This document shows, one piece after another, positions 32,326-40,514 of a stretch of DNA of 64,000 bases. The stretch is from an uncultured SAR86 cluster bacterium (GTDB lineage Bacteria; Pseudomonadota; Gammaproteobacteria; Magnimaribacterales; D2472), in the NCBI GenBank assembly GCA_902541175.1, contig CACBPP010000001.1:134923-198922 (forward strand), read 5' to 3'. The translations under genes were made by a program, and so were the position numbers. The notes under the pieces are model-generated. The model ran no database searches, was not told where the DNA came from, and was given only the letters and a program-made list of their open reading frames with translations. How positions within the stretch are numbered: position 1 is the stretch's first letter; each line of letters starts with the position of its first letter.

Positions 32326-34499
32326 TATAGTTTTTCAAGATTTGCGTAAGCCATTACCAGCCATTTTGTTCCAGAAGCATCAAAATTTACTTGAACTCTT
32401 GCTGAATCTCCTGAACCTTCATAATTTAATACAATACCTTCACCAAATTTCTTATGTTTTACTTTCTGGCCAAGCGCAATTCCGATTTCCTCCTCAAACT
32501 CTACTTTGGTTTCATTAAAGTCTTTTCTATTATAAGGAATATTGGTTTGTGCTCTAGGTCTTATTTCGTCAATTAAGTCTTTTGGTATTTCTCTTAAAAA
32601 TCTTGAAGGAGGATTAAAAGTATCATTACCATGCAACCTCCTTGATTCAGCATGCGTTATATATAATTTCTCCATTGCTCTTGTAATTGCAACATAACAA
32701 AGCCTTCTTTCTTCCTCTAATTGAGATGCGCTTTCCATTGATCTGCCATGTGGGAATAAACTCTCTTCTAAGCCAGTAAGAAGGACTAATTTAAATTCAA
32801 GACCCTTTGCAGAGTGCATTGTCATAAGTTGTGCAGCATCATCATGCTCAGCAGCTTGTCTATCGCCGGCATCAAGAGAGATAACATCAAGATAGTTTTC
32901 TGCAATCTCAGTATTTGTTTTATCTTCTTTAATACTTTGCTCAAAATTTTTAGTTGCCGTTATTAATTCTTCAAGATTTTCTGTTCTAGTTTTGCCTTTT
33001 TCACCAGCCTCTTTAGCATGATATGAATATAGGCCAGATTCTTTAATAATAAGTTCCATTAAATCCGACAAACTATTGTCTTCAATGAAAGACTTACATC
33101 CTGCAATAAACTCCAGATAGTCTCTCAATCCAGAACCACCCCTCCCAGAAATTGATCCTTCATCAATTAATTTTGCAGATGCCTTAATATAAGAAATATT
33201 ATATTTTTGAGCCGTTTGTCGAATTTTGCCCAAAGTTTTTTCTCCAACTCCTCTAGTTGGATTTGATATTGATCTCTCAAAGGATGGATTATCATTATTG
33301 TTAAATATAATTTTCAAATATGCGATTGCATTTTTTATTTCGAGCCTTTCATAGAAACGCAATCCGCCGTAAATCCTGTACGGAATGCTTATTCTTAATA
33401 AAGCTTCTTCTATTGCTCTTGATTGTGCATTTGATCTATACAGAACTGCTGTTTCTTCATATGCCCCACCTTTATTCATCCAGTCCTTTAGAACATCTGC
33501 AATAAACCTTGCCTCATCCTGTTCGTTGTAAGCCTGATAAAGGACTATTTGTTCACCCTCAAGTTTTTCTGTCCATAAATTTTTGCCAAGTCTGTCTTTG
33601 TTATTATCAATTAACGCATTTGCTGCGTTTAGAATCACGTTAGTAGATCTATAATTTTGTTCAAGCCTTACAATCTCCGTATTTTTGTAATCTTCTGTAA
33701 AAGAATTTACATGTTCGACTTTAGCTCCACGCCAGCCATATATGGACTGATCATCATCTCCAACCGCTGTTACATTTGCATCGTCCGATGCTATTTCACG
33801 AAGCCATTTATATTGAATAGTATTAGTATCCTGAAACTCATCAATGAGAATTGATTGAAACCTTGACTGAAAAAAAGTCTTAACTGAAGGCGAAGCAACT
33901 AGTATTTCATATGACTTTAAAAGCAGTTCACCAAAATCAACTAGATCATCATTTTTACAAATTTTTTCATATTCTTTATATATTTTATTAACAGTTTCAG
34001 TGTAAAAATCTCCTTTTTCATCAACATCTTTACTTCTTAATCCATCATCTTTCCATGAATTGATTTGCCACTGACTTTGTCTAGCTGGCCATGTGGCTTC
34101 ATCCAAACTCAGTTCTTTTGATATTCTTTTTACTATTCTTAATTGGTCATCTGAATCTAGAATGGTAAATCCACTTGAGAGTTCTGCCTCTTTATGAAAT
34201 CTCTTAAGCAGTTTATGAGAAAGGCCATGAAATGTTCCAACCCAGGAATCAATAATTGGAGATTGAAGAAGTTCTTCAATTCTTGACCTCATTTCATTTG
34301 CAGCTTTATTTGTAAAAGTTACAGCCATTATTGTAGATGGATTTCTTCCAAGCGCCTCTACTTCCCAAGCAATTTTGTGAACAAGAACCCTGGTTTTGCC
34401 AGAACCGGCTCCTGCCAAAACTAGGAGATGTTGCTTTTCAGATGTAACAGCGTTTCGCTGATCTTCATTTAAGCTGTCTAAAATATGAGATACATCCAT
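32325..34499 (-). CDS. uvrD: DNA helicase II UvrD
   Basis: The N-terminus is nearly collinear with E. coli UvrD (LLVLAGAGSGKTRVLVHKIAW...IMAVTFTNKAANEM). Also DEFQDT, YRS, and the C-terminal conserved tail. Confidence 0.9.
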   Translation of the reverse strand: MDVSHILDSLNEDQRNAVTSEKQHLLVLAGAGSGKTRVLVHKIAWEVEALGRNPSTIMAVTFTNKAANEMRSRIEELLQSPIIDSWVGTFHGLSHKLLKRFHKEAELSSGFTILDSDDQLRIVKRISKELSLDEATWPARQSQWQINSWKDDGLRSKDVDEKGDFYTETVNKIYKEYEKICKNDDLVDFGELLLKSYEILVASPSVKTFFQSRFQSILIDEFQDTNTIQYKWLREIASDDANVTAVGDDDQSIYGWRGAKVEHVNSFTEDYKNTEIVRLEQNYRSTNVILNAANALIDNNKDRLGKNLWTEKLEGEQIVLYQAYNEQDEARFIADVLKDWMNKGGAYEETAVLYRSNAQSRAIEEALLRISIPYRIYGGLRFYERLEIKNAIAYLKIIFNNNDNPSFERSISNPTRGVGEKTLGKIRQTAQKYNISYIKASAKLIDEGSISGRGGSGLRDYLEFIAGCKSFIEDNSLSDLMELIIKESGLYSYHAKEAGEKGKTRTENLEELITATKNFEQSIKEDKTNTEIAENYLDVISLDAGDRQAAEHDDAAQLMTMHSAKGLEFKLVLLTGLEESLFPHGRSMESASQLEEERRLCYVAITRAMEKLYITHAESRRLHGNDTFNPPSRFLREIPKDLIDEIRPRAQTNIPYNRKDFNETKVEFEEEIGIALGQKVKHKKFGEGIVLNYEGSGDSARVQVNFDASGTKWLVMAYANLEKL

Positions 34500-34523
34500 T
34501 TAGGGATTCATTTTTTTGTTTAA

Positions 34524-34538
34524 GTTAGATATTCTAAC
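34524..34538. promoter_or_regulatory. Inverted repeat GTTAGA-TAT-TCTAAC, 3 nt upstream of the RpiR-family gene ATG (candidate autoregulatory operator)
   Basis: Read directly. It lies in the 42-bp uvrD/rpiR divergent gap. Confidence 0.3.
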
Positions 34539-34541
34539 CTT

Positions 34542-35387
34542 ATGTCGACTAAATTATTGAGACAAATTAAAAATTCTCTTCCTGATTTAAGAAAATCTGA
34601 AAAAATTGTTGGAGAGTATATTTTAGAAGATCCAAAATCAATTATTACTATGAAAACTGCAGAAGCTTCAGAAGCAATGGGTATTAGCGAACCAACATTA
34701 ATAAGATTCTGTAAAGCAATTGGATTTTCAGGTTTTCAAGAACTTAAAATTAATTTGTCTCAGCAGCTAGCAGCTGACGATTATTTTGTTATGTACGAGA
34801 TAACAGAAGACGATTCAATTCATGAGCTATGTGAAAAAGTTTTTGATACAACAATAAGTGAGATACTTAATGTAAGGTCACAGCTTGATCAGAGTATTCT
34901 TGAAAATGCCATTGAAGCTCTTGTGAATGCAGATAGAGTTGAATTTTATTCATTTGGTGGTTCAGCACCAGTTGCAATGGATGGTCAGCATAAATTTTTT
35001 AGATTGAAAATACCCTCATCATATATTTCTGACCCACACCTACAATTTATGTCTGCGAACTCTTTAAGCAAAAATGATATTGTTGTAGCAATCTCCCAAT
35101 CTGGAACAACTGCAGCCTTAATTGAAAGTGTCAAAATAGTTAGAAAAAATGGTGTTAAAGTTATTGGAATAATGCCAGGCGATACACCACTTGCAGATAT
35201 TTGTGATTTTCCTCTAACAATCAATATTGGAATAAATAATAGAATTTCAAAACCCCTTACGTCCAGAATTGCTTATACAGCGGTAGTAGATGTGCTAACG
35301 ATGGGAGTAGCTCAATTAAAACCTGAGGCACAGGATCACCTATATAACATTGCGGACAGCCAAAGGTCTTTAAAAATAGATAATTAA
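34542..35387 (+). CDS. RpiR/HexR family transcriptional regulator (HTH + SIS domain)
   Basis: N-terminal HTH_6 (SEKIVGEYILEDP...ISEPTLIRFCKAIGFSGFQELK). C-terminal SIS (VVAISQSGTT). Confidence 0.85.
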   Translation: MSTKLLRQIKNSLPDLRKSEKIVGEYILEDPKSIITMKTAEASEAMGISEPTLIRFCKAIGFSGFQELKINLSQQLAADDYFVMYEITEDDSIHELCEKVFDTTISEILNVRSQLDQSILENAIEALVNADRVEFYSFGGSAPVAMDGQHKFFRLKIPSSYISDPHLQFMSANSLSKNDIVVAISQSGTTAALIESVKIVRKNGVKVIGIMPGDTPLADICDFPLTINIGINNRISKPLTSRIAYTAVVDVLTMGVAQLKPEAQDHLYNIADSQRSLKIDN

Positions 35388-36001
35388 TATATAGCTGATT
35401 CTCTAAACCAGAGATTTACTGCCCATTTTTCGCCAGAAATTACTGGAGATCCTGCATGAAGAGCATCAGGATTAATTTCAGTTGTTCCCTCAATACAATT
35501 ATGAAAAACTACAACATCTCCTTTATTAGGTTTTACAGAAACATTTATCTCGGGGAAATCAGTCTCTCCGCCCTCTTCAACATCATTTAAATATGCTAAA
35601 GCTGTTACCATTCTTTGTCCTCCAGGAAACCAATTGTTTTGGCCTTCTTTGGTAGTTTTATCAAACGCATCAAAATGAGGCTTATATTCGTTTCCTGGCC
35701 CATAATAGACAAGTTGAAATTGCTCTGCGTTATTAATAGGCATTTGGACCAAAACAGAAAATCTTTTACTTACTTCGTGAATAACTTCATTTGCACTATG
35801 CTCAAGCCAACAATAGTCATTAGTTCTGCTTGAATGAACTTCGTGCTCAGAATCAGTTATTACAGTTGCCCTTTGCATCTTGCCTTTTCCATGCTCAACA
35901 AATGCTTCACATTCATCATTAGATAGAAAATTAGATACAACATACACAACCGGATTGGCTGAATACATGGTTACGTTTTCAGATATTTTTTTTGGTTCCA
36001 T
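35384..36001 (-). CDS. Prolyl 4-hydroxylase-type 2OG-Fe(II) oxygenase (P4Hc)
   Basis: HFDAF (HxD), GGETDFP, distal LHAG His, and the EKWAVNLWF 2OG-binding strand. No signal peptide. Confidence 0.85.
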   Translation of the reverse strand: MEPKKISENVTMYSANPVVYVVSNFLSNDECEAFVEHGKGKMQRATVITDSEHEVHSSRTNDYCWLEHSANEVIHEVSKRFSVLVQMPINNAEQFQLVYYGPGNEYKPHFDAFDKTTKEGQNNWFPGGQRMVTALAYLNDVEEGGETDFPEINVSVKPNKGDVVVFHNCIEGTTEINPDALHAGSPVISGEKWAVNLWFRESAIY

Positions 36002-36047
36002 TTACGATTCAAATTATACTATTTTTGTACATTAATAATAATTTTTC

Positions 36048-37037
36048 ATGAAAATATTTATATCAATAGCATCCTATCAAGATCCCTTGTTGGAAACGAC
36101 CATTAACAGCGCATATAAAAATGCTAAACATCCTGAAAACTTAGTCTTTGGTATATGCGATCAGTCCTCAAATCCTATAAATATTGATTCTTTTAAATTT
36201 TCTAATCAATTTAAGTACGATCATGTAAATCCAATAGATTCAAAAGGTCCTTGTTGGGCTAGAGCAAGAATCCAAAAAAGCTTTAATGATGAAGATTTCT
36301 ATCTTCAAATCGATTCTCATATGCAATTTGAAGAAAATTGGGATTCATATTTAATCAAATATATTGAAAAGATTAAGAATACTGATTCAGAAATACATCA
36401 GAGTCCAATTATCACCTGCTATCCTCGTGCCTTCAATGTCATAGATCTAGAAAGAGGTGAATTTGATCTCAATAATGCCGAAACAAGAACTGATGCTATT
36501 TCATTCAGAAAAGACAGTATGTTCATAAAAAATAATTTCTCAAGACAAATTGGCTCAATTGCATCCAAAGAAATAACTCATGGGTATTTAATTGCTGCTG
36601 GTTGCATATTTACTACTGGTGATTTTGTAAAAAAAGTTCCTTATGATCCAGAATTTTATTTCTATGGTGAAGAAATATCATTAATGCTTAGATCATTTAC
36701 AAGAAACTTAGGAATTTTTCATATTCAGTCACTCCCGATTTTTCACCTATATGCTGAGCTTTCGAATATTAAAAGAAAGCTTCATTGGAATGAAGATGAA
36801 GATTCAAATAGAGATGTTAAATGGTATCAAAGAGAAGAAAAAAGTATAAATAAATTAAATGCATTGATAAATGATGATGTAGAAGGTGCTTTTGGCCTTG
36901 GTGATAAAAAAACATTAGATGATTATGAGTATCTTTCAGGTGTAGATCTTAAAAATAAAGTTGTTACTGACGAAAATAAAGCATTTACAGCAAAATTTAT
37001 TTCTACTCTTGATTGGAGAGAATCGCCTTTTAAATAA
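36048..37037 (+). CDS. GT-A glycosyltransferase of the PF11397 / CAZy GT60 type (Gnt1-like polypeptide GlcNAc-transferase)
   Basis: IFISIASYQDP..., GPCWARA, YLQIDSHMQFEENWD, ITCYP and VPYDPEFYFYGEEISLMLRSFT...FHLY. Recognised from memory of the family pattern and not confirmed by HMM. Confidence 0.65.
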   Translation: MKIFISIASYQDPLLETTINSAYKNAKHPENLVFGICDQSSNPINIDSFKFSNQFKYDHVNPIDSKGPCWARARIQKSFNDEDFYLQIDSHMQFEENWDSYLIKYIEKIKNTDSEIHQSPIITCYPRAFNVIDLERGEFDLNNAETRTDAISFRKDSMFIKNNFSRQIGSIASKEITHGYLIAAGCIFTTGDFVKKVPYDPEFYFYGEEISLMLRSFTRNLGIFHIQSLPIFHLYAELSNIKRKLHWNEDEDSNRDVKWYQREEKSINKLNALINDDVEGAFGLGDKKTLDDYEYLSGVDLKNKVVTDENKAFTAKFISTLDWRESPFK

Positions 37038-37084
37038 TTCTTAAGAACAGATGTTAAAATTGTCTAAATAATTCTGGAGAAAAT

Positions 37085-37501
37085 ATGAGTGAAGAAATCA
37101 AAAAATTTTTTAAAACCTATACAGATTTCGTAACCAAAGTTACTAGCGATCCGAGCTTGGACCTTGAGTCTTTAAAACAAAGTTTTATTGAAATTGAAAA
37201 GAATTCAGATATTAAGACTCCCAGGCTTTTAACAGCAGCATTGGGATTGGGAAGTGAAACAGGTGAGTTTGTGGAAATAGTAAAAAAAATGTTTCTCCAG
37301 GGTAAGCCTCCTTCTGAAGAAAACATATTTCATATGAAAAGAGAGCTTGGAGATATCATGTGGTATTGGGTAACTGCCTGTGCCTCATTAGGGCTTGATC
37401 CGTATGAAGTAATCAGTGAAAACCAAGAAAAACTTGCCGCTAGATATGGAGAAAAATTTGAGGTTGAGAGAAGCGAGGTCAGAAAAGAAGGCGATCTTTA
37501 A
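37085..37501 (+). CDS. MazG-like all-alpha nucleotide pyrophosphohydrolase
   Basis: LGSETGEFVEIVKK and ELGDIMWYW (ExxE...ExxD metal motifs). 138 aa. Confidence 0.7.
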   Translation: MSEEIKKFFKTYTDFVTKVTSDPSLDLESLKQSFIEIEKNSDIKTPRLLTAALGLGSETGEFVEIVKKMFLQGKPPSEENIFHMKRELGDIMWYWVTACASLGLDPYEVISENQEKLAARYGEKFEVERSEVRKEGDL

Positions 37502-37509
37502 TTTGAAAT

Positions 37510-38295
37510 ATGGAGCATCTTAAAAATCTTAACATTGTTATAACTGCAGGAGCTTCTGGTATTGGTTCAGAAATGGCAATTGAATTATGCAAGCATGGAT
37601 CATGCGTAACAATATGTGACAAAGACTCTTCAGTACTTGATAGATTTTCTAAGAATAATCCTAAAATAGATTGCCATAATGTTGATGTTTCTGAAGAGCC
37701 ACAGATAAAAAAATTTTTTAACGAAATTGAAAAAAAAGCGGGAAACATTAGCGCATTAATAAATAATGCAGGCATTTCTGGTCCATCAGCAAAACTTGAA
37801 GATATTAGTTTTCAAGATTGGAAAGAGACTATTGATACAAATCTTGACGGAGTTTTTTTAGCAACAAGATCTGCAATACCTTTAATGAAAAAAAATGGAG
37901 GCTCTGTAATTAATATTGGATCAACATCATCATTTATGGGAACTCCTCTAAGATCAGCGTATTCAGCATCAAAGTGGGGCTTAATTGGTCTCACGAAAAC
38001 CTGGGCCATGGAATATGGAAAAAATAACATCAGGTTTAATGCAATATGTCCAAGCTCAATTAATGGTAAGCGTATTGAAAATGTTATTAAAAAAGAAGCT
38101 GAATATCGTAATACTTCAATAGATAAAATAAAATCAACATATCTCAAACAAACATCTTTAAAAACTTTCATTGATGTTGAAGAAGTTATTGGGATGATAA
38201 TTTATTTATTGTCGCCTTTAGCAAAAAATATAACCGGGCAAATGCTTGTTATTGACGGACATACAGAAACCCTATCGATGATGGAGAAAGATTAA
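37510..38295 (+). CDS. Short-chain dehydrogenase/reductase (SDR)
   Basis: TAGASGIGSE, NNAG and YSASKWG motifs. Confidence 0.85.
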   Translation: MEHLKNLNIVITAGASGIGSEMAIELCKHGSCVTICDKDSSVLDRFSKNNPKIDCHNVDVSEEPQIKKFFNEIEKKAGNISALINNAGISGPSAKLEDISFQDWKETIDTNLDGVFLATRSAIPLMKKNGGSVINIGSTSSFMGTPLRSAYSASKWGLIGLTKTWAMEYGKNNIRFNAICPSSINGKRIENVIKKEAEYRNTSIDKIKSTYLKQTSLKTFIDVEEVIGMIIYLLSPLAKNITGQMLVIDGHTETLSMMEKD

Positions 38296-38296
38296 T

Positions 38297-39280
38297 ATGA
38301 AAGCAGCTTGGTATGAAAAAACTGGTGAAGCACAAAAGGTTCTTCAGATTGGAGAATTAGATAATCCTGTTCCAAATAAAGGCGAGGTTTTAGTCCAACT
38401 TAAAACATCTGGCATTAATCCATCAGATGTGAAAATAAGGTCAGGAGCAAGAGGTGAGCTCCAATTTCCAAAGATAATACCTCACTCTGATGGTGCGGGA
38501 ACTATCGTTGATGTTGGAGAAGGTGTTGATAAAAATAGAATTGGCGAAAGAGTTTGGATCTGGAATGGTGCTTTTGGAAGAGCTTATGGAACTTGTGCGG
38601 AGTTAATTTCTTTACCTGAATTTCAAGCAGCCAAAATCAATGACAGTGTAGATTTTAAATCTGCAGCATGTATGGGTATACCTGCTTCTACAGCATATTA
38701 TGGGATATTCGCCAATGGTTCAGTTAAAGACAAAACTGTATTAATTTCTGGAGGAGCTGGTGCTGTAGGATTTTATGGTATTCAACTAGCCAAACTTTCT
38801 GGAGCAAATGTTATTTCAACTATAAGCAGTGATGATAAGGCAGAAGTAGCTCAAGAAGCAGGTGCAGATAAAGTAATAAACTATAAGAATGAGGATGTTG
38901 TCGAAGAAATTATAAATTACACAGATAATAAAGGAGTAGACAGAATCTTTGAAGTTGAATTTGGTGGTAATTTATCAATTAATGAGAAAGTCTTGAAATC
39001 AAATGGTGTTATAGCAGCATATGGTTCGATGGCAGAAATAGAACCAAAATTGCCCTTCTACAACTTTATGTTTAAAGGGATAAAAATTGATACTTTTTTA
39101 ATTTATTCGATTAACCAAAATTTCAGAGAACAACTTATATATCGGCTTTCAAAAATGTTAAACGAAAATTCTTTAAAACATATGGTTACAAAAACTTTCT
39201 CTATAGATAATATTATCGAGGCTCATGAAGCAATGGAAAGTGGTAATATTATTGGCAACATTGTAGTAGAGGTGTCATAA
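38297..39280 (+). CDS. MDR-superfamily NAD(P)H quinone oxidoreductase-like (zinc-independent)
   Basis: GINPSD, LISGGAGAVGFYGIQLAK, and C-terminal GNIIGNIVV. Confidence 0.8.
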   Translation: MKAAWYEKTGEAQKVLQIGELDNPVPNKGEVLVQLKTSGINPSDVKIRSGARGELQFPKIIPHSDGAGTIVDVGEGVDKNRIGERVWIWNGAFGRAYGTCAELISLPEFQAAKINDSVDFKSAACMGIPASTAYYGIFANGSVKDKTVLISGGAGAVGFYGIQLAKLSGANVISTISSDDKAEVAQEAGADKVINYKNEDVVEEIINYTDNKGVDRIFEVEFGGNLSINEKVLKSNGVIAAYGSMAEIEPKLPFYNFMFKGIKIDTFLIYSINQNFREQLIYRLSKMLNENSLKHMVTKTFSIDNIIEAHEAMESGNIIGNIVVEVS

Positions 39281-39282
39281 GA

Positions 39283-39645
39283 ATGATTACGGTATTGTCT
39301 TCAATATATTTTATTTATGGTTTTATCCTATTTTATACATACTCAAAAGGTTACAGTCTATTGAGATATCTTCTAAAAAGAAAAAATATTAATGTCTATA
39401 TCTCGATTGAGCTAATTTTTGTAATCTTATGCTCTTTAATTGTTTTTACATCACAGCCGTTGAACTGGGTCGTTGGATTAATAATGCTATTCCACATAGC
39501 TGGAATAATATGGCTTATTTCTAATCCGGGAAGCTTTTATTCTATGGCAGAAGATCCTTCTATAGATATTGATTCGTTAGAAATCTCGTCTGCTATGGTT
39601 GTAATTGGATTGGGTGTATTTGTATATTTTTCAACAATATTTTAA
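39283..39645 (+). CDS. Hypothetical 4-TM membrane protein
   Basis: Hydrophobic 120-aa ORF tightly following the oxidoreductase gene (2-nt gap). No recognisable family. Confidence 0.5.
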   Translation: MITVLSSIYFIYGFILFYTYSKGYSLLRYLLKRKNINVYISIELIFVILCSLIVFTSQPLNWVVGLIMLFHIAGIIWLISNPGSFYSMAEDPSIDIDSLEISSAMVVIGLGVFVYFSTIF

Positions 39646-40514
39646 AGATTATCTTTGAGCCTCTTATATAGACTGGATGTATCCCATTTCCCGCCTCCAG
39701 ATTTTTGTATCTCTTTATAATAGTCGTTAACAATTTTGGTGACTTCTAAACTTATGTTTTCATGTTCTGCTTTTTGAATAACTATGTCTAAATCTTTTCT
39801 CATTAGATCTACAGCAAAACCATGATCGAATTCATCTTCGAGCATTGTGTGCCATCTATTTTCCATTTGCCATGATTGAGCAGCTCCTTTAGAGATGACT
39901 TCTAAAACATCTTTGGAGTTTAATCCTACTTTTTCTGAGAAATTCATCCCTTCAGCAAGACCTTGAAGTAAACCGGCTATGCAAATCTGATTTACCATTT
40001 TTGTTAACTGTCCTGATCCACTTTCTCCCATATATTTTATAGACTTAGAGTAACTCATTAAAATATCTTTCAGTTCTTTATGTAGCTCATTTTTACCACC
40101 CACCATTATTGAGAGTTGACCAGATTCGGCTCCAGCCTGACCCCCAGATACAGGTGCATCAAGATAATTTATATTCTTTGTGCTTAGAAGATTATTCATC
40201 TCCTTGGCTAGATCAGCTGAAGTAGTTGTATGATCTACAATGCAAGAGCCTGATTTTAAATGTTCTAAGGCTCCATCTTTATCAGAAATAATTTCTCTTA
40301 CATCGTTATCATTGCCAACACAAAGAAAAAGAATATCAGATACTTTTGATATTTCTTTTATGGAGCTACATTCAGATCCAGAATATTTCTTTATCCAGCT
40401 TTTGGTTTTTTCAAGTGAGCGATTAAATACTCTGATCTCATGCTGTTTTGATAGATGCCCGGCCATTGGAGATCCCATGACTCCAAGGCCTATAAAGCCA
40501 ATGGCTTTATTCAT
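39642..40514 (-). CDS. 3-hydroxyisobutyrate dehydrogenase family NAD(P)-dependent oxidoreductase
   Basis: IGFIGLGVMGSPMAGHL, DAPVSGG and GSGQLTKMVNQ motifs. Confidence 0.85.
   Translation of the reverse strand: MNKAIGFIGLGVMGSPMAGHLSKQHEIRVFNRSLEKTKSWIKKYSGSECSSIKEISKVSDILFLCVGNDNDVREIISDKDGALEHLKSGSCIVDHTTTSADLAKEMNNLLSTKNINYLDAPVSGGQAGAESGQLSIMVGGKNELHKELKDILMSYSKSIKYMGESGSGQLTKMVNQICIAGLLQGLAEGMNFSEKVGLNSKDVLEVISKGAAQSWQMENRWHTMLEDEFDHGFAVDLMRKDLDIVIQKAEHENISLEVTKIVNDYYKEIQKSGGGKWDTSSLYKRLKDNL

What the first reader, a model, noticed from the sequence alone, without database searches (positions are those of the whole stretch)
35384..37037. Divergent prolyl 4-hydroxylase + GT60 (Gnt1-like) pair: candidate bacterial hydroxyproline O-glycosylation system
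ORF 35384-36001 (minus strand) has the complete collagen/plant/viral-type P4H signature: HFDAF, the distal His in LHAG, and the EKWAVNLWF strand.

A second ORF lies 46 bp away and is transcribed divergently, at 36048-37037. It carries the pattern I recognise as PF11397 / CAZy GT60: IFISIASYQDP, GPCWARA, YLQIDSHMQF..NWD and VPYDPEFYFYGEEISLMLRSFT..FHLY.

GT60 is the family of Dictyostelium and Toxoplasma Gnt1. Gnt1 adds alpha-GlcNAc to the hydroxyproline that a prolyl hydroxylase creates on Skp1, as part of an O2-sensing pathway. Hydroxyproline O-glycosylation is otherwise a plant and algal hallmark.

A hydroxylase plus a Hyp-directed GlcNAc-transferase encoded head-to-head in a bacterium suggests a two-step, O2- and 2OG-dependent protein modification pathway. 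To my knowledge this has not been characterised in bacteria.

Neither protein has a signal peptide, so the target should be cytoplasmic. No obvious Pro-rich substrate gene is adjacent.
Basis: partly seen in the sequence, partly recalled or inferred. Interest (0 to 1): 0.75.

Follow-up and report, generated by a model that had tools for sequence, protein, structure and literature searches.

The report
Bacterial prolyl hydroxylase–glycosyltransferase gene pair
A marine SAR86 bacterium has a collagen-type prolyl hydroxylase gene back-to-back with a GT60 protein-type sugar transferase gene; the same two enzyme types are fused into one protein in other bacteria, so they probably hydroxylate a proline and then attach a sugar to it, a modification not yet shown in bacteria.

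Summary
ORF 35384-36001(-) is a complete collagen/Bacillus/algal-type prolyl 4-hydroxylase (B. anthracis P4H, E=2e-32; all Fe/2OG residues present). ORF 36048-37037(+) is a PF11397/GT60 GT-A transferase (141 bits, cutoff 21). Its nearest solved structures are polypeptide GalNAc-transferases. The window is from a SAR86 bacterium.

Evidence for functional coupling:
- The pair is invariant in this SAR86 clade: 50/50 loci found via the GT and 77/77 found via the P4H.
- The 45-68 bp spacer has a conserved core.
- Both genes diverge together between near-identical flanks.
- 16 of the 150 best GT60 representatives carry a P4H-like domain in the same polypeptide, and the three whose gene neighbourhoods I examined are bacterial. 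The association arose in at least three separate GT60 clades.

Evidence for caution:
- The SAR86 adjacency lies inside a longer syntenic block.
- Most bacterial and viral GT60 genes have no hydroxylase nearby.
- The P4H is not the PhyA/PHD type used in the Skp1 pathway.
- In three SAR86 lineages the P4H has lost its iron ligands while the GT stays intact and constrained.
- No substrate was identified.

Verdict: a probable but unproven bacterial hydroxyproline-glycosylation module. It is a new variant of a known kind.

The parts
35384..36001 (-). Collagen/Bacillus/algal-type prolyl 4-hydroxylase, 205 aa, soluble. Catalytic residues: Y100, Y106, H109, D111, T133, H182, K192.
   Evidence: PF13640, 63 bits. 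Full-length matches to solved P4Hs: 3itq E=2e-32, 2jig 8e-32, 7zsc 3e-27, 5c5t 9e-19. Residue equivalences to C-P4H-II Y421/Y427/H430/D432/T467/H501/K511 from PMC9676403. dN/dS 0.018-0.047 in lineages with an active site.
36002..36047 (.). 46-bp divergent spacer. It contains the conserved core AAATTATACTATTT (36011-36024), which reads as a -10-like TATACT toward the GT and as TATAAT on the opposite strand toward the P4H. Putative shared bidirectional promoter core.
   Evidence: The spacer is 45-68 bp (median 49) in 73 measurable metagenome loci. The core is conserved across 85 distinct spacers. The promoter function is inferred only: the generic promoter scan is no better than shuffled sequence.
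36048..37037 (+). GT60 / PF11397 GT-A glycosyltransferase, 329 aa, soluble. Has the DxH metal motif (D89, H91), invariant D200, and near-invariant H225 and H233.
   Evidence: PF11397, 141 bits. Invariant columns in the 56-sequence alignment A1. AF2 model pLDDT 92.3, pTM 0.92. The top 28 Foldseek PDB hits are all GT27 polypeptide GalNAc-transferases, E about 2e-8.
37085..37501 (+). MazG-like nucleotide pyrophosphohydrolase, 138 aa. It runs in the same direction as the GT, 47 bp downstream. It is a conserved neighbour and possibly co-transcribed; whether it belongs to the system is unproven.
   Evidence: PF03819. Present downstream of the GT in 49 of 50 orthologous loci; the 50th contig ends before that position. 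Absent next to all 80 viral GT60 loci and next to the fusion proteins examined.

Best explanation
The two genes form a functional unit for two-step protein modification in SAR86 bacteria. They are divergently transcribed and probably co-regulated. Step 1: the Fe(II)/2-oxoglutarate/O2-dependent collagen-type P4H converts a peptidyl proline in an unidentified protein to 4-hydroxyproline. Step 2: the soluble GT60 GT-A enzyme, with a Mn2+-binding DxH motif, transfers a sugar from a UDP-sugar (most likely UDP-GlcNAc) onto that hydroxyl.

Shown: the enzyme classes, intact catalytic residues, invariant linkage within the clade, co-divergence of the two genes, and independent fusions of the two domain types in other bacteria.

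Inferred: that hydroxyproline is the acceptor, the donor sugar, co-transcriptional control from the shared spacer, and the identity and location of the substrate.
For: 1. Enzyme identity is established.
2. The GT's closest solved structures are protein O-glycosyltransferases: GT27 fills ranks 1-28.
3. Linkage holds in both directions: 50/50 loci with an orthologous GT carry the divergent P4H ORF, and 77/77 loci found via the P4H carry the divergent GT. L016/L017 keep the trio despite a different upstream flank.
4. The spacer core is conserved.
5. P4H and GT diverge together between near-identical flanks. In L062-L065, dN is 0.275 and 0.279 against UvrD 0.011 and NMO 0.023. In L042-L043, dN is 0.106 and 0.192 against 0.004 and 0.011.
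6. Fusion evidence: 16 of the 150 best GT60 representatives carry a P4H-like domain in the same polypeptide. The fused domains keep an intact HxD...H triad. The contexts are bacterial: surE-pcm-nlpD, tatABC, aroKB, surA. The oxygenase domain of the one fusion searched against the PDB (P0179) matches B. anthracis P4H best.
7. On an approximate tree the association arose in at least three separate GT60 clades.
8. Eukaryotic precedent: PhyA makes the Hyp that Gnt1 (GT60) glycosylates, and PhyA-Gnt1 fusions exist in protists (PMC6437050).
Against: 1. In L021, L060/L063/L064 and L062/L065 the P4H has lost Fe/2OG ligands (H109R or T; H182R or Y; K192R or S). The GT there keeps its DxH motif and 12 or all 13 tracked invariant residues (L065 has H225Y), with dN/dS 0.07-0.10 where it could be estimated. 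So the GT can be maintained without catalysis by its neighbour.
2. The SAR86 adjacency sits inside a longer syntenic block, lipA-lipB-dctP-uvrD-rpiR-P4H-GT-mazG...NMO. Conservation alone is therefore weak evidence.
3. The sister SAR86 GT60 paralog and the GT60 genes of other bacteria (30 loci) have no oxygenase within 6 kb. Only 7 of 80 viral loci have one within 5 kb, and none is adjacent.
4. GT60 includes Thr-directed enzymes (PMC8724618).
5. No substrate candidate was found: no Pro-rich ORF in the window.
6. There is no experimental or expression data.
Confidence: 0.45

Rival explanations
1. The two genes are neighbours by synteny only and work independently. The GT60 enzyme glycosylates Ser/Thr of some protein, as the Thr-directed GT60 members do, or a non-protein acceptor. 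The P4H separately hydroxylates a protein such as a translation factor or a collagen-like protein.
For: The block around the pair is extensively syntenic. The GT is maintained beside dead P4Hs. The sister paralog and most other GT60 genes lack a hydroxylase. GT60 contains Thr-directed enzymes (PMC8724618). The GT evolves 2-5 times faster than the P4H in several pairs.
Against: Fusions of GT60 with P4H-like domains recur independently in other bacteria. P4H and GT diverge together between conserved flanks. No exception to adjacency was found in 127 loci. The shared spacer has a conserved core.
Confidence: 0.28
2. The P4H-like protein partners the GT in some way other than making its acceptor. 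It could be a substrate-recognition or scaffold subunit, or an O2/2OG-dependent regulator that hydroxylates the GT or a third protein. Its catalytic activity would then be dispensable in some lineages.
For: The dead P4H ORFs stay intact over long divergence (L062-L065, dS about 1.5), with dN/dS 0.19-0.30. That is relaxed but below neutral. Linkage is invariant and the genes co-diverge.
Against: 42 of 50 loci keep the full catalytic heptad under strong constraint, dN/dS 0.018-0.047. All fused domains keep the iron triad. So catalysis is the normal state. There is no direct evidence of a complex.
Confidence: 0.15
3. The pair acts on a small molecule or glycan: a free amino acid, a nucleotide sugar or a secondary metabolite. 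The neighbouring MazG might take part in nucleotide handling.
For: MazG is conserved downstream. All three families occur as auxiliary genes in phages. Some GT60 proteins are fused to GT2, GT4 or methyltransferase domains, as in glycan assembly enzymes.
Against: The P4H aligns over its full length with peptide-acting P4Hs and keeps the catalytic-loop Tyr that contacts the substrate proline. The GT's nearest structures are polypeptide transferases. The locus has no sugar-nucleotide, polymerase or export genes. MazG is absent from the fusion loci and the viral loci.
Confidence: 0.1

Closest known systems
Skp1 modification pathway of Dictyostelium and Toxoplasma (PhyA prolyl 4-hydroxylase plus the GT60 enzyme Gnt1)
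   Same: A soluble 2OG/Fe P4H paired with a soluble GT60 transferase. The two domain types are also found fused, in protists (PMC6437050) and here in bacteria. Both imply a two-step Pro to Hyp to O-sugar logic.
   Different: PhyA is PHD/EGLN-type. The window enzyme is collagen-type and has no PDB hit to PHD/PhyA/PPHD at E<0.01. Bacteria lack Skp1/SCF (my own knowledge). The follow-on transferases PgtA, AgtA, Glt1 and Gat1 are absent from the locus. The acceptor and donor are untested.
Bacillus anthracis P4H (PDB 3itq, 5hv0, 5iax) and Chlamydomonas Cr-P4H-1 (2jig, 3gze)
   Same: Closest solved relatives of the hydroxylase (E=2e-32 and 8e-32). Same size (about 205-225 aa), a single domain, and all Fe/2OG/catalytic-loop residues.
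   Different: No glycosyltransferase partner of B. anthracis P4H turned up in the literature searches. Cr-P4H acts in the secretory pathway on Ser-Pro-rich wall proteins, and its Hyp is glycosylated by unrelated GT families (my own knowledge).
GT27 polypeptide GalNAc-transferases (human GalNAc-T1/T2/T4/T12, Toxoplasma GalNAc-T3)
   Same: Nearest solved folds: ranks 1-28, E about 1e-8 to 1e-7, TM about 0.5. Shared GT-A core with a DxH metal motif and a protein acceptor.
   Different: Only 12-17% identity. The window protein has no lectin domain and no membrane anchor. GT27 enzymes target Ser/Thr with GalNAc in the Golgi.
LH3/PLOD3 and mimivirus L230 (collagen lysyl hydroxylase fused to a glycosyltransferase)
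   Same: A 2OG hydroxylase creates a hydroxyl on a protein side chain, which a linked GT then glycosylates. The oxygenase domain of the bacterial fusion P0179 weakly matches LH3 (E about 1e-3).
   Different: The target is lysine, not proline, and the GT folds and families differ. The window P4H matches P4Hs and not LH3.
Pseudomonas PPHD (prolyl hydroxylase acting on EF-Tu)
   Same: A bacterial cytoplasmic prolyl hydroxylase acting on a housekeeping protein (PMC6437050 and references therein).
   Different: PPHD is PHD-type, no glycosylation step is known, and there is no sequence match at E<0.01.

Membership tests
Collagen-type prolyl 4-hydroxylase (P4Hc; B. anthracis P4H / Cr-P4H / C-P4H catalytic domain class) | 2OG-Fe(II) oxygenase (DSBH) domain above the curated threshold | tested here: met
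   PF13640, 63 bits against a cutoff of 27.
Collagen-type prolyl 4-hydroxylase (P4Hc; B. anthracis P4H / Cr-P4H / C-P4H catalytic domain class) | His-x-Asp...His iron triad, plus Lys at +10 from the distal His and the Tyr/Thr that bind 2OG | tested here: met
   H109, D111, H182, K192, Y100 and T133, matching C-P4H-II H430/D432/H501/K511/Y421/T467 (PMC9676403).
Collagen-type prolyl 4-hydroxylase (P4Hc; B. anthracis P4H / Cr-P4H / C-P4H catalytic domain class) | Catalytic-loop Tyr, three residues before the first His, that contacts the substrate proline (Cr-P4H Tyr140) | tested here: met
   Y106 in YKPH.
Collagen-type prolyl 4-hydroxylase (P4Hc; B. anthracis P4H / Cr-P4H / C-P4H catalytic domain class) | Full-length homology to solved P4Hs of this class rather than to the PHD/PhyA class | tested here: met
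   3itq 2e-32, 2jig 8e-32, 7zsc 3e-27, 5c5t 9e-19. No PHD/PhyA/PPHD hit at E<0.01.
Collagen-type prolyl 4-hydroxylase (P4Hc; B. anthracis P4H / Cr-P4H / C-P4H catalytic domain class) | Peptidyl-proline 4-hydroxylase activity | not testable with these tools
   Needs an enzyme assay.
CAZy GT60 / Pfam PF11397 'Glycosyltransferase (GlcNAc)' | Match to the family model above the curated threshold | tested here: met
   PF11397, 141 bits against a cutoff of 21. The PF11397 = GT60 correspondence is from my own knowledge. dbCAN was not available.
CAZy GT60 / Pfam PF11397 'Glycosyltransferase (GlcNAc)' | GT-A fold with a DxH metal-binding motif, related to the GT27 polypeptide transferases | tested here: met
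   D89 and H91 are invariant in A1. AF2 pLDDT 92. Top 28 PDB folds are GT27.
CAZy GT60 / Pfam PF11397 'Glycosyltransferase (GlcNAc)' | UDP-GlcNAc donor and retaining alpha transfer to a polypeptide | not testable with these tools
   Needs biochemistry.
Gnt1 orthologues (Skp1 hydroxyproline alpha-GlcNAc-transferase) | The partner hydroxylase is a PhyA/PHD-type P4H | tested here: not met
   The partner is collagen-type.
Gnt1 orthologues (Skp1 hydroxyproline alpha-GlcNAc-transferase) | Groups with characterised Gnt1 rather than with Thr-directed pp-alphaGlcNAcTs in a phylogeny | not tested
   No labelled eukaryotic GT60 sequences could be retrieved with these tools. In the tree the window GT sits in a SAR86-specific clade.
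Gnt1 orthologues (Skp1 hydroxyproline alpha-GlcNAc-transferase) | The acceptor is Hyp143 of Skp1 | not testable with these tools
   Bacteria have no Skp1 (my own knowledge). The acceptor is unknown.
LH3 / mimivirus L230-type lysyl hydroxylase-glycosyltransferase | The hydroxylase is of the lysyl-hydroxylase (PLOD) class | tested here: not met
   The window P4H gives no PLOD hit at E<0.01. Only the fusion P0179 shows a weak one.
Known anti-phage defence systems (PADLOC) | Component proteins match defence-system models | tested here: not met
   The P4H gives only a generic 2OG-domain hit. The GT and MazG give none.

The most novel reading that the evidence does not exclude
Bacteria possess an unrecognised O2-, Fe- and 2-oxoglutarate-dependent protein hydroxyproline O-glycosylation pathway, built from collagen-type P4H and GT60 modules. 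It would exist as a divergent gene pair throughout one SAR86 clade and as giant [GT60]1-4-(AhpC)-P4H fusion enzymes in other Proteobacteria. The fusion enzymes would build a Hyp-linked oligosaccharide much as the Skp1 pathway does. This would be a prokaryotic counterpart, and possibly a source, of eukaryotic Hyp glycosylation.
Probability: 0.35. Interest if true: 0.8.

Novelty: new variant of a known kind. Interest (0 to 1): 0.62.

Why it matters
Glycosylation of hydroxyproline is regarded as eukaryotic: plant and algal wall proteins, and Skp1 in protists. No bacterial case surfaced in the papers I could search.

SAR86 is one of the most abundant heterotroph groups in the surface ocean (my own knowledge). 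A conserved modification step that depends on O2, Fe and 2-oxoglutarate would link its proteome to oxygen, iron and carbon status.

The bacterial fusions give an experimentally tractable way in. They also offer a possible evolutionary link between collagen-type P4Hs, GT60 and the eukaryotic pathways.

The lineages with a dead hydroxylase but a live transferase are a natural experiment on how acceptor specificity (Hyp versus Ser/Thr) might switch.

Tried and rejected
- **Generic promoter/terminator scan of 34400-39800:** 21 promoter-like sites against 24.8 expected, so uninformative.
- **PADLOC:** no defence-system membership.
- **Sequence and profile searches of the GT against the PDB:** no solved GT60 structure, so Hyp-binding determinants could not be checked.
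- **Substrate hunt:**
  - No Pro-rich or collagen-like ORF in the window.
  - The DUF8426 gene upstream of two of the fusions has no homologue in the window or in the SAR86 loci.
  - MazG has three invariant prolines, but nothing singles them out.
- **Viral association:** more than 581 viral GT60 loci exist. Only 7 of the 80 kept have a P4H-like ORF within 5 kb, none adjacent, and none has MazG. Among cultured phages only four Xanthomonas/Stenotrophomonas jumbo phages carry the GT. In the one examined, the neighbours are a NUDIX hydrolase and a carbamoyltransferase, not a hydroxylase.
- **Literature:** searches for a bacterial P4H-GT60 system returned nothing relevant.
- **Frameshifts in L038 and L054:** not used as evidence, because both are MAGs whose names (LRMED) suggest long-read assemblies, so sequencing error is plausible.
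- **MazG as part of the system:** considered and left open, because it behaves like the housekeeping flanks and is absent from the fusion and viral contexts.
Full report
**Observation.**
The window has about 32% G+C. Its GT gene is 96-98% identical to those of SAR86 single-cell genomes AG-891-I20 and AG-360-N22. They are divergent, with 46 bp between the start codons. All quoted motifs are present.

**The hydroxylase.**
It scores 63 bits on PF13640 (cutoff 27). It aligns over its full length with solved prolyl 4-hydroxylases:
- B. anthracis P4H, E=2e-32
- Chlamydomonas P4H, E=8e-32
- human C-P4H alpha2 catalytic domain, E=3e-27
- PBCV-1 P4H, E=9e-19

No PHD, PhyA or PPHD structure matched at E<0.01, so it is collagen-type and not the Skp1/HIF type. 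It keeps the iron triad (H109, D111, H182), the 2OG ligands (Y100, T133, K192) and the catalytic-loop Tyr that contacts the substrate proline (Y106). These are the equivalents described for C-P4H-II and Cr-P4H in PMC9676403.

**The transferase.**
It scores 141 bits on PF11397 (cutoff 21). No solved structure is related by sequence or by profile. An AlphaFold2 model built from a 56-sequence alignment is confident (pLDDT 92.3, pTM 0.92). Its 28 best PDB neighbours are all GT27 polypeptide GalNAc-transferases, followed by KfiA and TarS. The DxH motif (D89, H91), D200 and other residues are invariant across the family alignment. This fits the published view that GT60 is the protist/cytoplasmic counterpart of GT27. 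The same source also states that GT60 includes Thr-directed enzymes as well as the Hyp-directed Gnt1 (PMC8724618). Family membership therefore does not by itself imply a hydroxyproline acceptor.

**Is the adjacency conserved?**
A scan of species-representative genomes with the GT profile confirmed 442 loci and returned the best 80.
- In all 50 loci where the GT is an ortholog (43-98% identity, SAR86-type genomes), a P4H ORF lies divergently upstream. In 49 of them a MazG-like gene lies downstream; the 50th contig ends before that position.
- The other 30 loci have no oxygenase within 6 kb, even with a profile search. They comprise a sister SAR86 paralog and genes from Burkholderiaceae, Thiomicrospira, a 'Rickettsiales' MAG and Porticoccaceae. 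The SAR86 paralog lies between an AlgH-like gene and gamma-glutamyltranspeptidase.
- In the reciprocal test, anchored on the P4H in metagenome contigs, 77 of 77 loci with enough flank carry the divergent GT. The spacer is 45-68 bp.

Within SAR86, however, the pair lies in a longer conserved block, lipA-lipB-dctP-uvrD-rpiR-P4H-GT-mazG...NMO. Adjacency alone is therefore weak evidence.

**Evidence beyond synteny.**
1. L016 and L017 keep P4H-GT-MazG with a different upstream flank.
2. P4H and GT behave as one hypervariable island.
   - L062 vs L065: dN is 0.275 (P4H) and 0.279 (GT), against 0.011 (UvrD), 0.055 (RpiR), 0.070 (MazG) and 0.023 (NMO).
   - L042 vs L043: dN is 0.106 and 0.192, against 0.004 and 0.011.
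3. The spacer has a conserved core, AAATTATACTATTT (window 36011-36024). It reads as a -10-like hexamer toward the GT and as TATAAT toward the P4H. I take this only as compatible with a shared promoter, because the generic scan is no better than shuffled sequence.
4. Gene fusions are the strongest evidence.
   - An exhaustive search found 3,725 GT60 representative clusters.
   - Of the best 150, 16 also contain a P4H-like domain. The architectures are GT60-P4H, GT60x2-P4H(x2) and [GT60]3-4-AhpC/TSA-P4H(-P4H), up to 2,461 aa.
   - The three fusions whose gene neighbourhoods I examined (50-58% G+C) lie among ordinary bacterial genes: surE-pcm-nlpD and tatABC; radA-cvpA-purF; aroK-aroB-surA.
   - All 13 full-length fused oxygenase domains keep HxD...H. 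Twelve have a basic 2OG ligand (Arg); P0171 has Glu at that position. Most GT60 repeats keep DxH.
   - The oxygenase domain of the one fusion searched (P0179) matches B. anthracis P4H best.
   - On an approximate NJ tree without bootstrap, the SAR86 linked clade, the multi-repeat fusions and the single-repeat fusion P0171 fall in three separate parts of the family. P0171 sits among Burkholderiales-type genes.

The association therefore arose repeatedly. Protist PhyA-Gnt1 fusions are already known (PMC6437050). I found no report of the bacterial, collagen-type version.

**Evidence against strict coupling.**
42 of the 50 loci keep the full catalytic heptad. Two more, L038 and L054, have likely sequencing frameshifts. 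In six loci from three lineages the ORF is intact but the ligands are gone:
- L021: H109R, H182R, K192R
- L060/L063/L064: motifs degenerate
- L062/L065: H109R

In those genomes the GT keeps its DxH motif and 12 or all 13 tracked invariant residues (L065 has H225Y). Its dN/dS is 0.07-0.10 where it could be estimated. The dead P4H shows relaxed but non-neutral dN/dS of 0.19-0.30, against 0.018-0.047 for active P4Hs.

There are several possible readings:
- The GT does not strictly need Hyp.
- Those lineages have another P4H elsewhere in the genome.
- The acceptor site switched to Ser/Thr.
- The P4H-like protein has a second, non-catalytic role.

**Other context.**
- All three gene families are common in phages, and GT60 is abundant in viral contigs. 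Viral GT60 genes are rarely near an oxygenase and never near MazG.
- The system is not a known defence system.
- No Pro-rich or collagen-like candidate substrate exists in the 64-kb window.

**Conclusion.**
The best-supported reading, at about 0.45, is a coupled prolyl-hydroxylation and O-glycosylation module acting on an unknown protein. It is an analogue of the Skp1 PhyA/Gnt1 pathway, not a member of it, because it is built with a different P4H subclass. The main rival, at about 0.28, is independent function within a syntenic block. The finding is a new variant of a known kind. It can be tested directly by co-expression and mass spectrometry, and the bacterial fusion enzymes make it of wider interest than the SAR86 locus alone.

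Noticed in passing
L091:10001-17386 (P0121); also P0122, P0123, P0126, P0134, P0164, P0170, P0172, P0210: Giant bacterial proteins of 1,100-2,461 aa with 2-4 tandem GT60 repeats, sometimes an AhpC/TSA peroxiredoxin domain, and one or two C-terminal P4H-like domains. P0121 lies beside a divergent sulfotransferase-like gene in a surE-pcm-nlpD neighbourhood. I found no report of this architecture.
   Followed up: partly
L060:5397-6065, L063, L064; L062:5312-6010, L065; L021:65-685: Catalytically dead but intact P4H paralogues (H109R or T; H182R or Y; K192R or S) in three SAR86 lineages. dN/dS is 0.19-0.30, next to fully intact GT60 genes. These may be pseudoenzymes.
   Followed up: yes
window 37510-39280: An SDR plus zinc-ADH gene pair lies between MazG and the 120-aa membrane protein. 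It is absent from the closest relatives (L008/L009, GT 96-98% identical) but present in the more distant L012, L015 and L018. It is a small variable cassette.
   Followed up: partly
L048:5444-8705 and L067, L074, L079 (same layout): SAR86 genomes carry a second GT60 paralog, sister to the P4H-linked one. It lies between an AlgH-like (DUF179) gene, whose stop overlaps the GT start, and gamma-glutamyltranspeptidase. It has no hydroxylase, and its function is unknown.
   Followed up: partly
L061:5687-6999 (Porticoccaceae bacterium nBUS_09): A GT60 that nests within the SAR86 P4H-linked clade has no P4H. Instead it has a broken MazG-like remnant immediately upstream, which is the opposite order to SAR86. 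This suggests transfer followed by decay.
   Followed up: partly
L088:7447-7983 and L092:921-1496: A gene of about 180-190 aa, flagged DUF8426 in the precomputed annotation, with a C-terminal hydrophobic segment. It sits directly upstream of, and in the same direction as, two different GT60-P4H fusion genes. It could be a partner or a substrate. My own Pfam scan found no family for it at E<=0.001.
   Followed up: partly
window 35384-35387: The 3' ends of the convergent HexR/RpiR-type regulator gene (34542-35387, +) and the P4H gene (35384-36001, -) overlap by 4 bp. This leaves no room for a terminator between them.
   Followed up: no
L042 vs L043; L062 vs L065: Divergence is mosaic. UvrD and RpiR are 98-99% identical in L042/L043 (98% and 93% in L062/L065), while the adjacent P4H and GT are only 60-83% identical with saturated dS. 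This suggests allelic replacement of this segment by recombination between SAR86 lineages.
   Followed up: partly
L173:3992-7687 (Xanthomonas jumbo phage Xoo-sp13): Among cultured phages, only four Xanthomonas/Stenotrophomonas jumbo phages encode a GT60 homologue. In Xoo-sp13 it is a longer protein of about 450 aa, next to a carbamoyltransferase and close to a NUDIX hydrolase.
   Followed up: no
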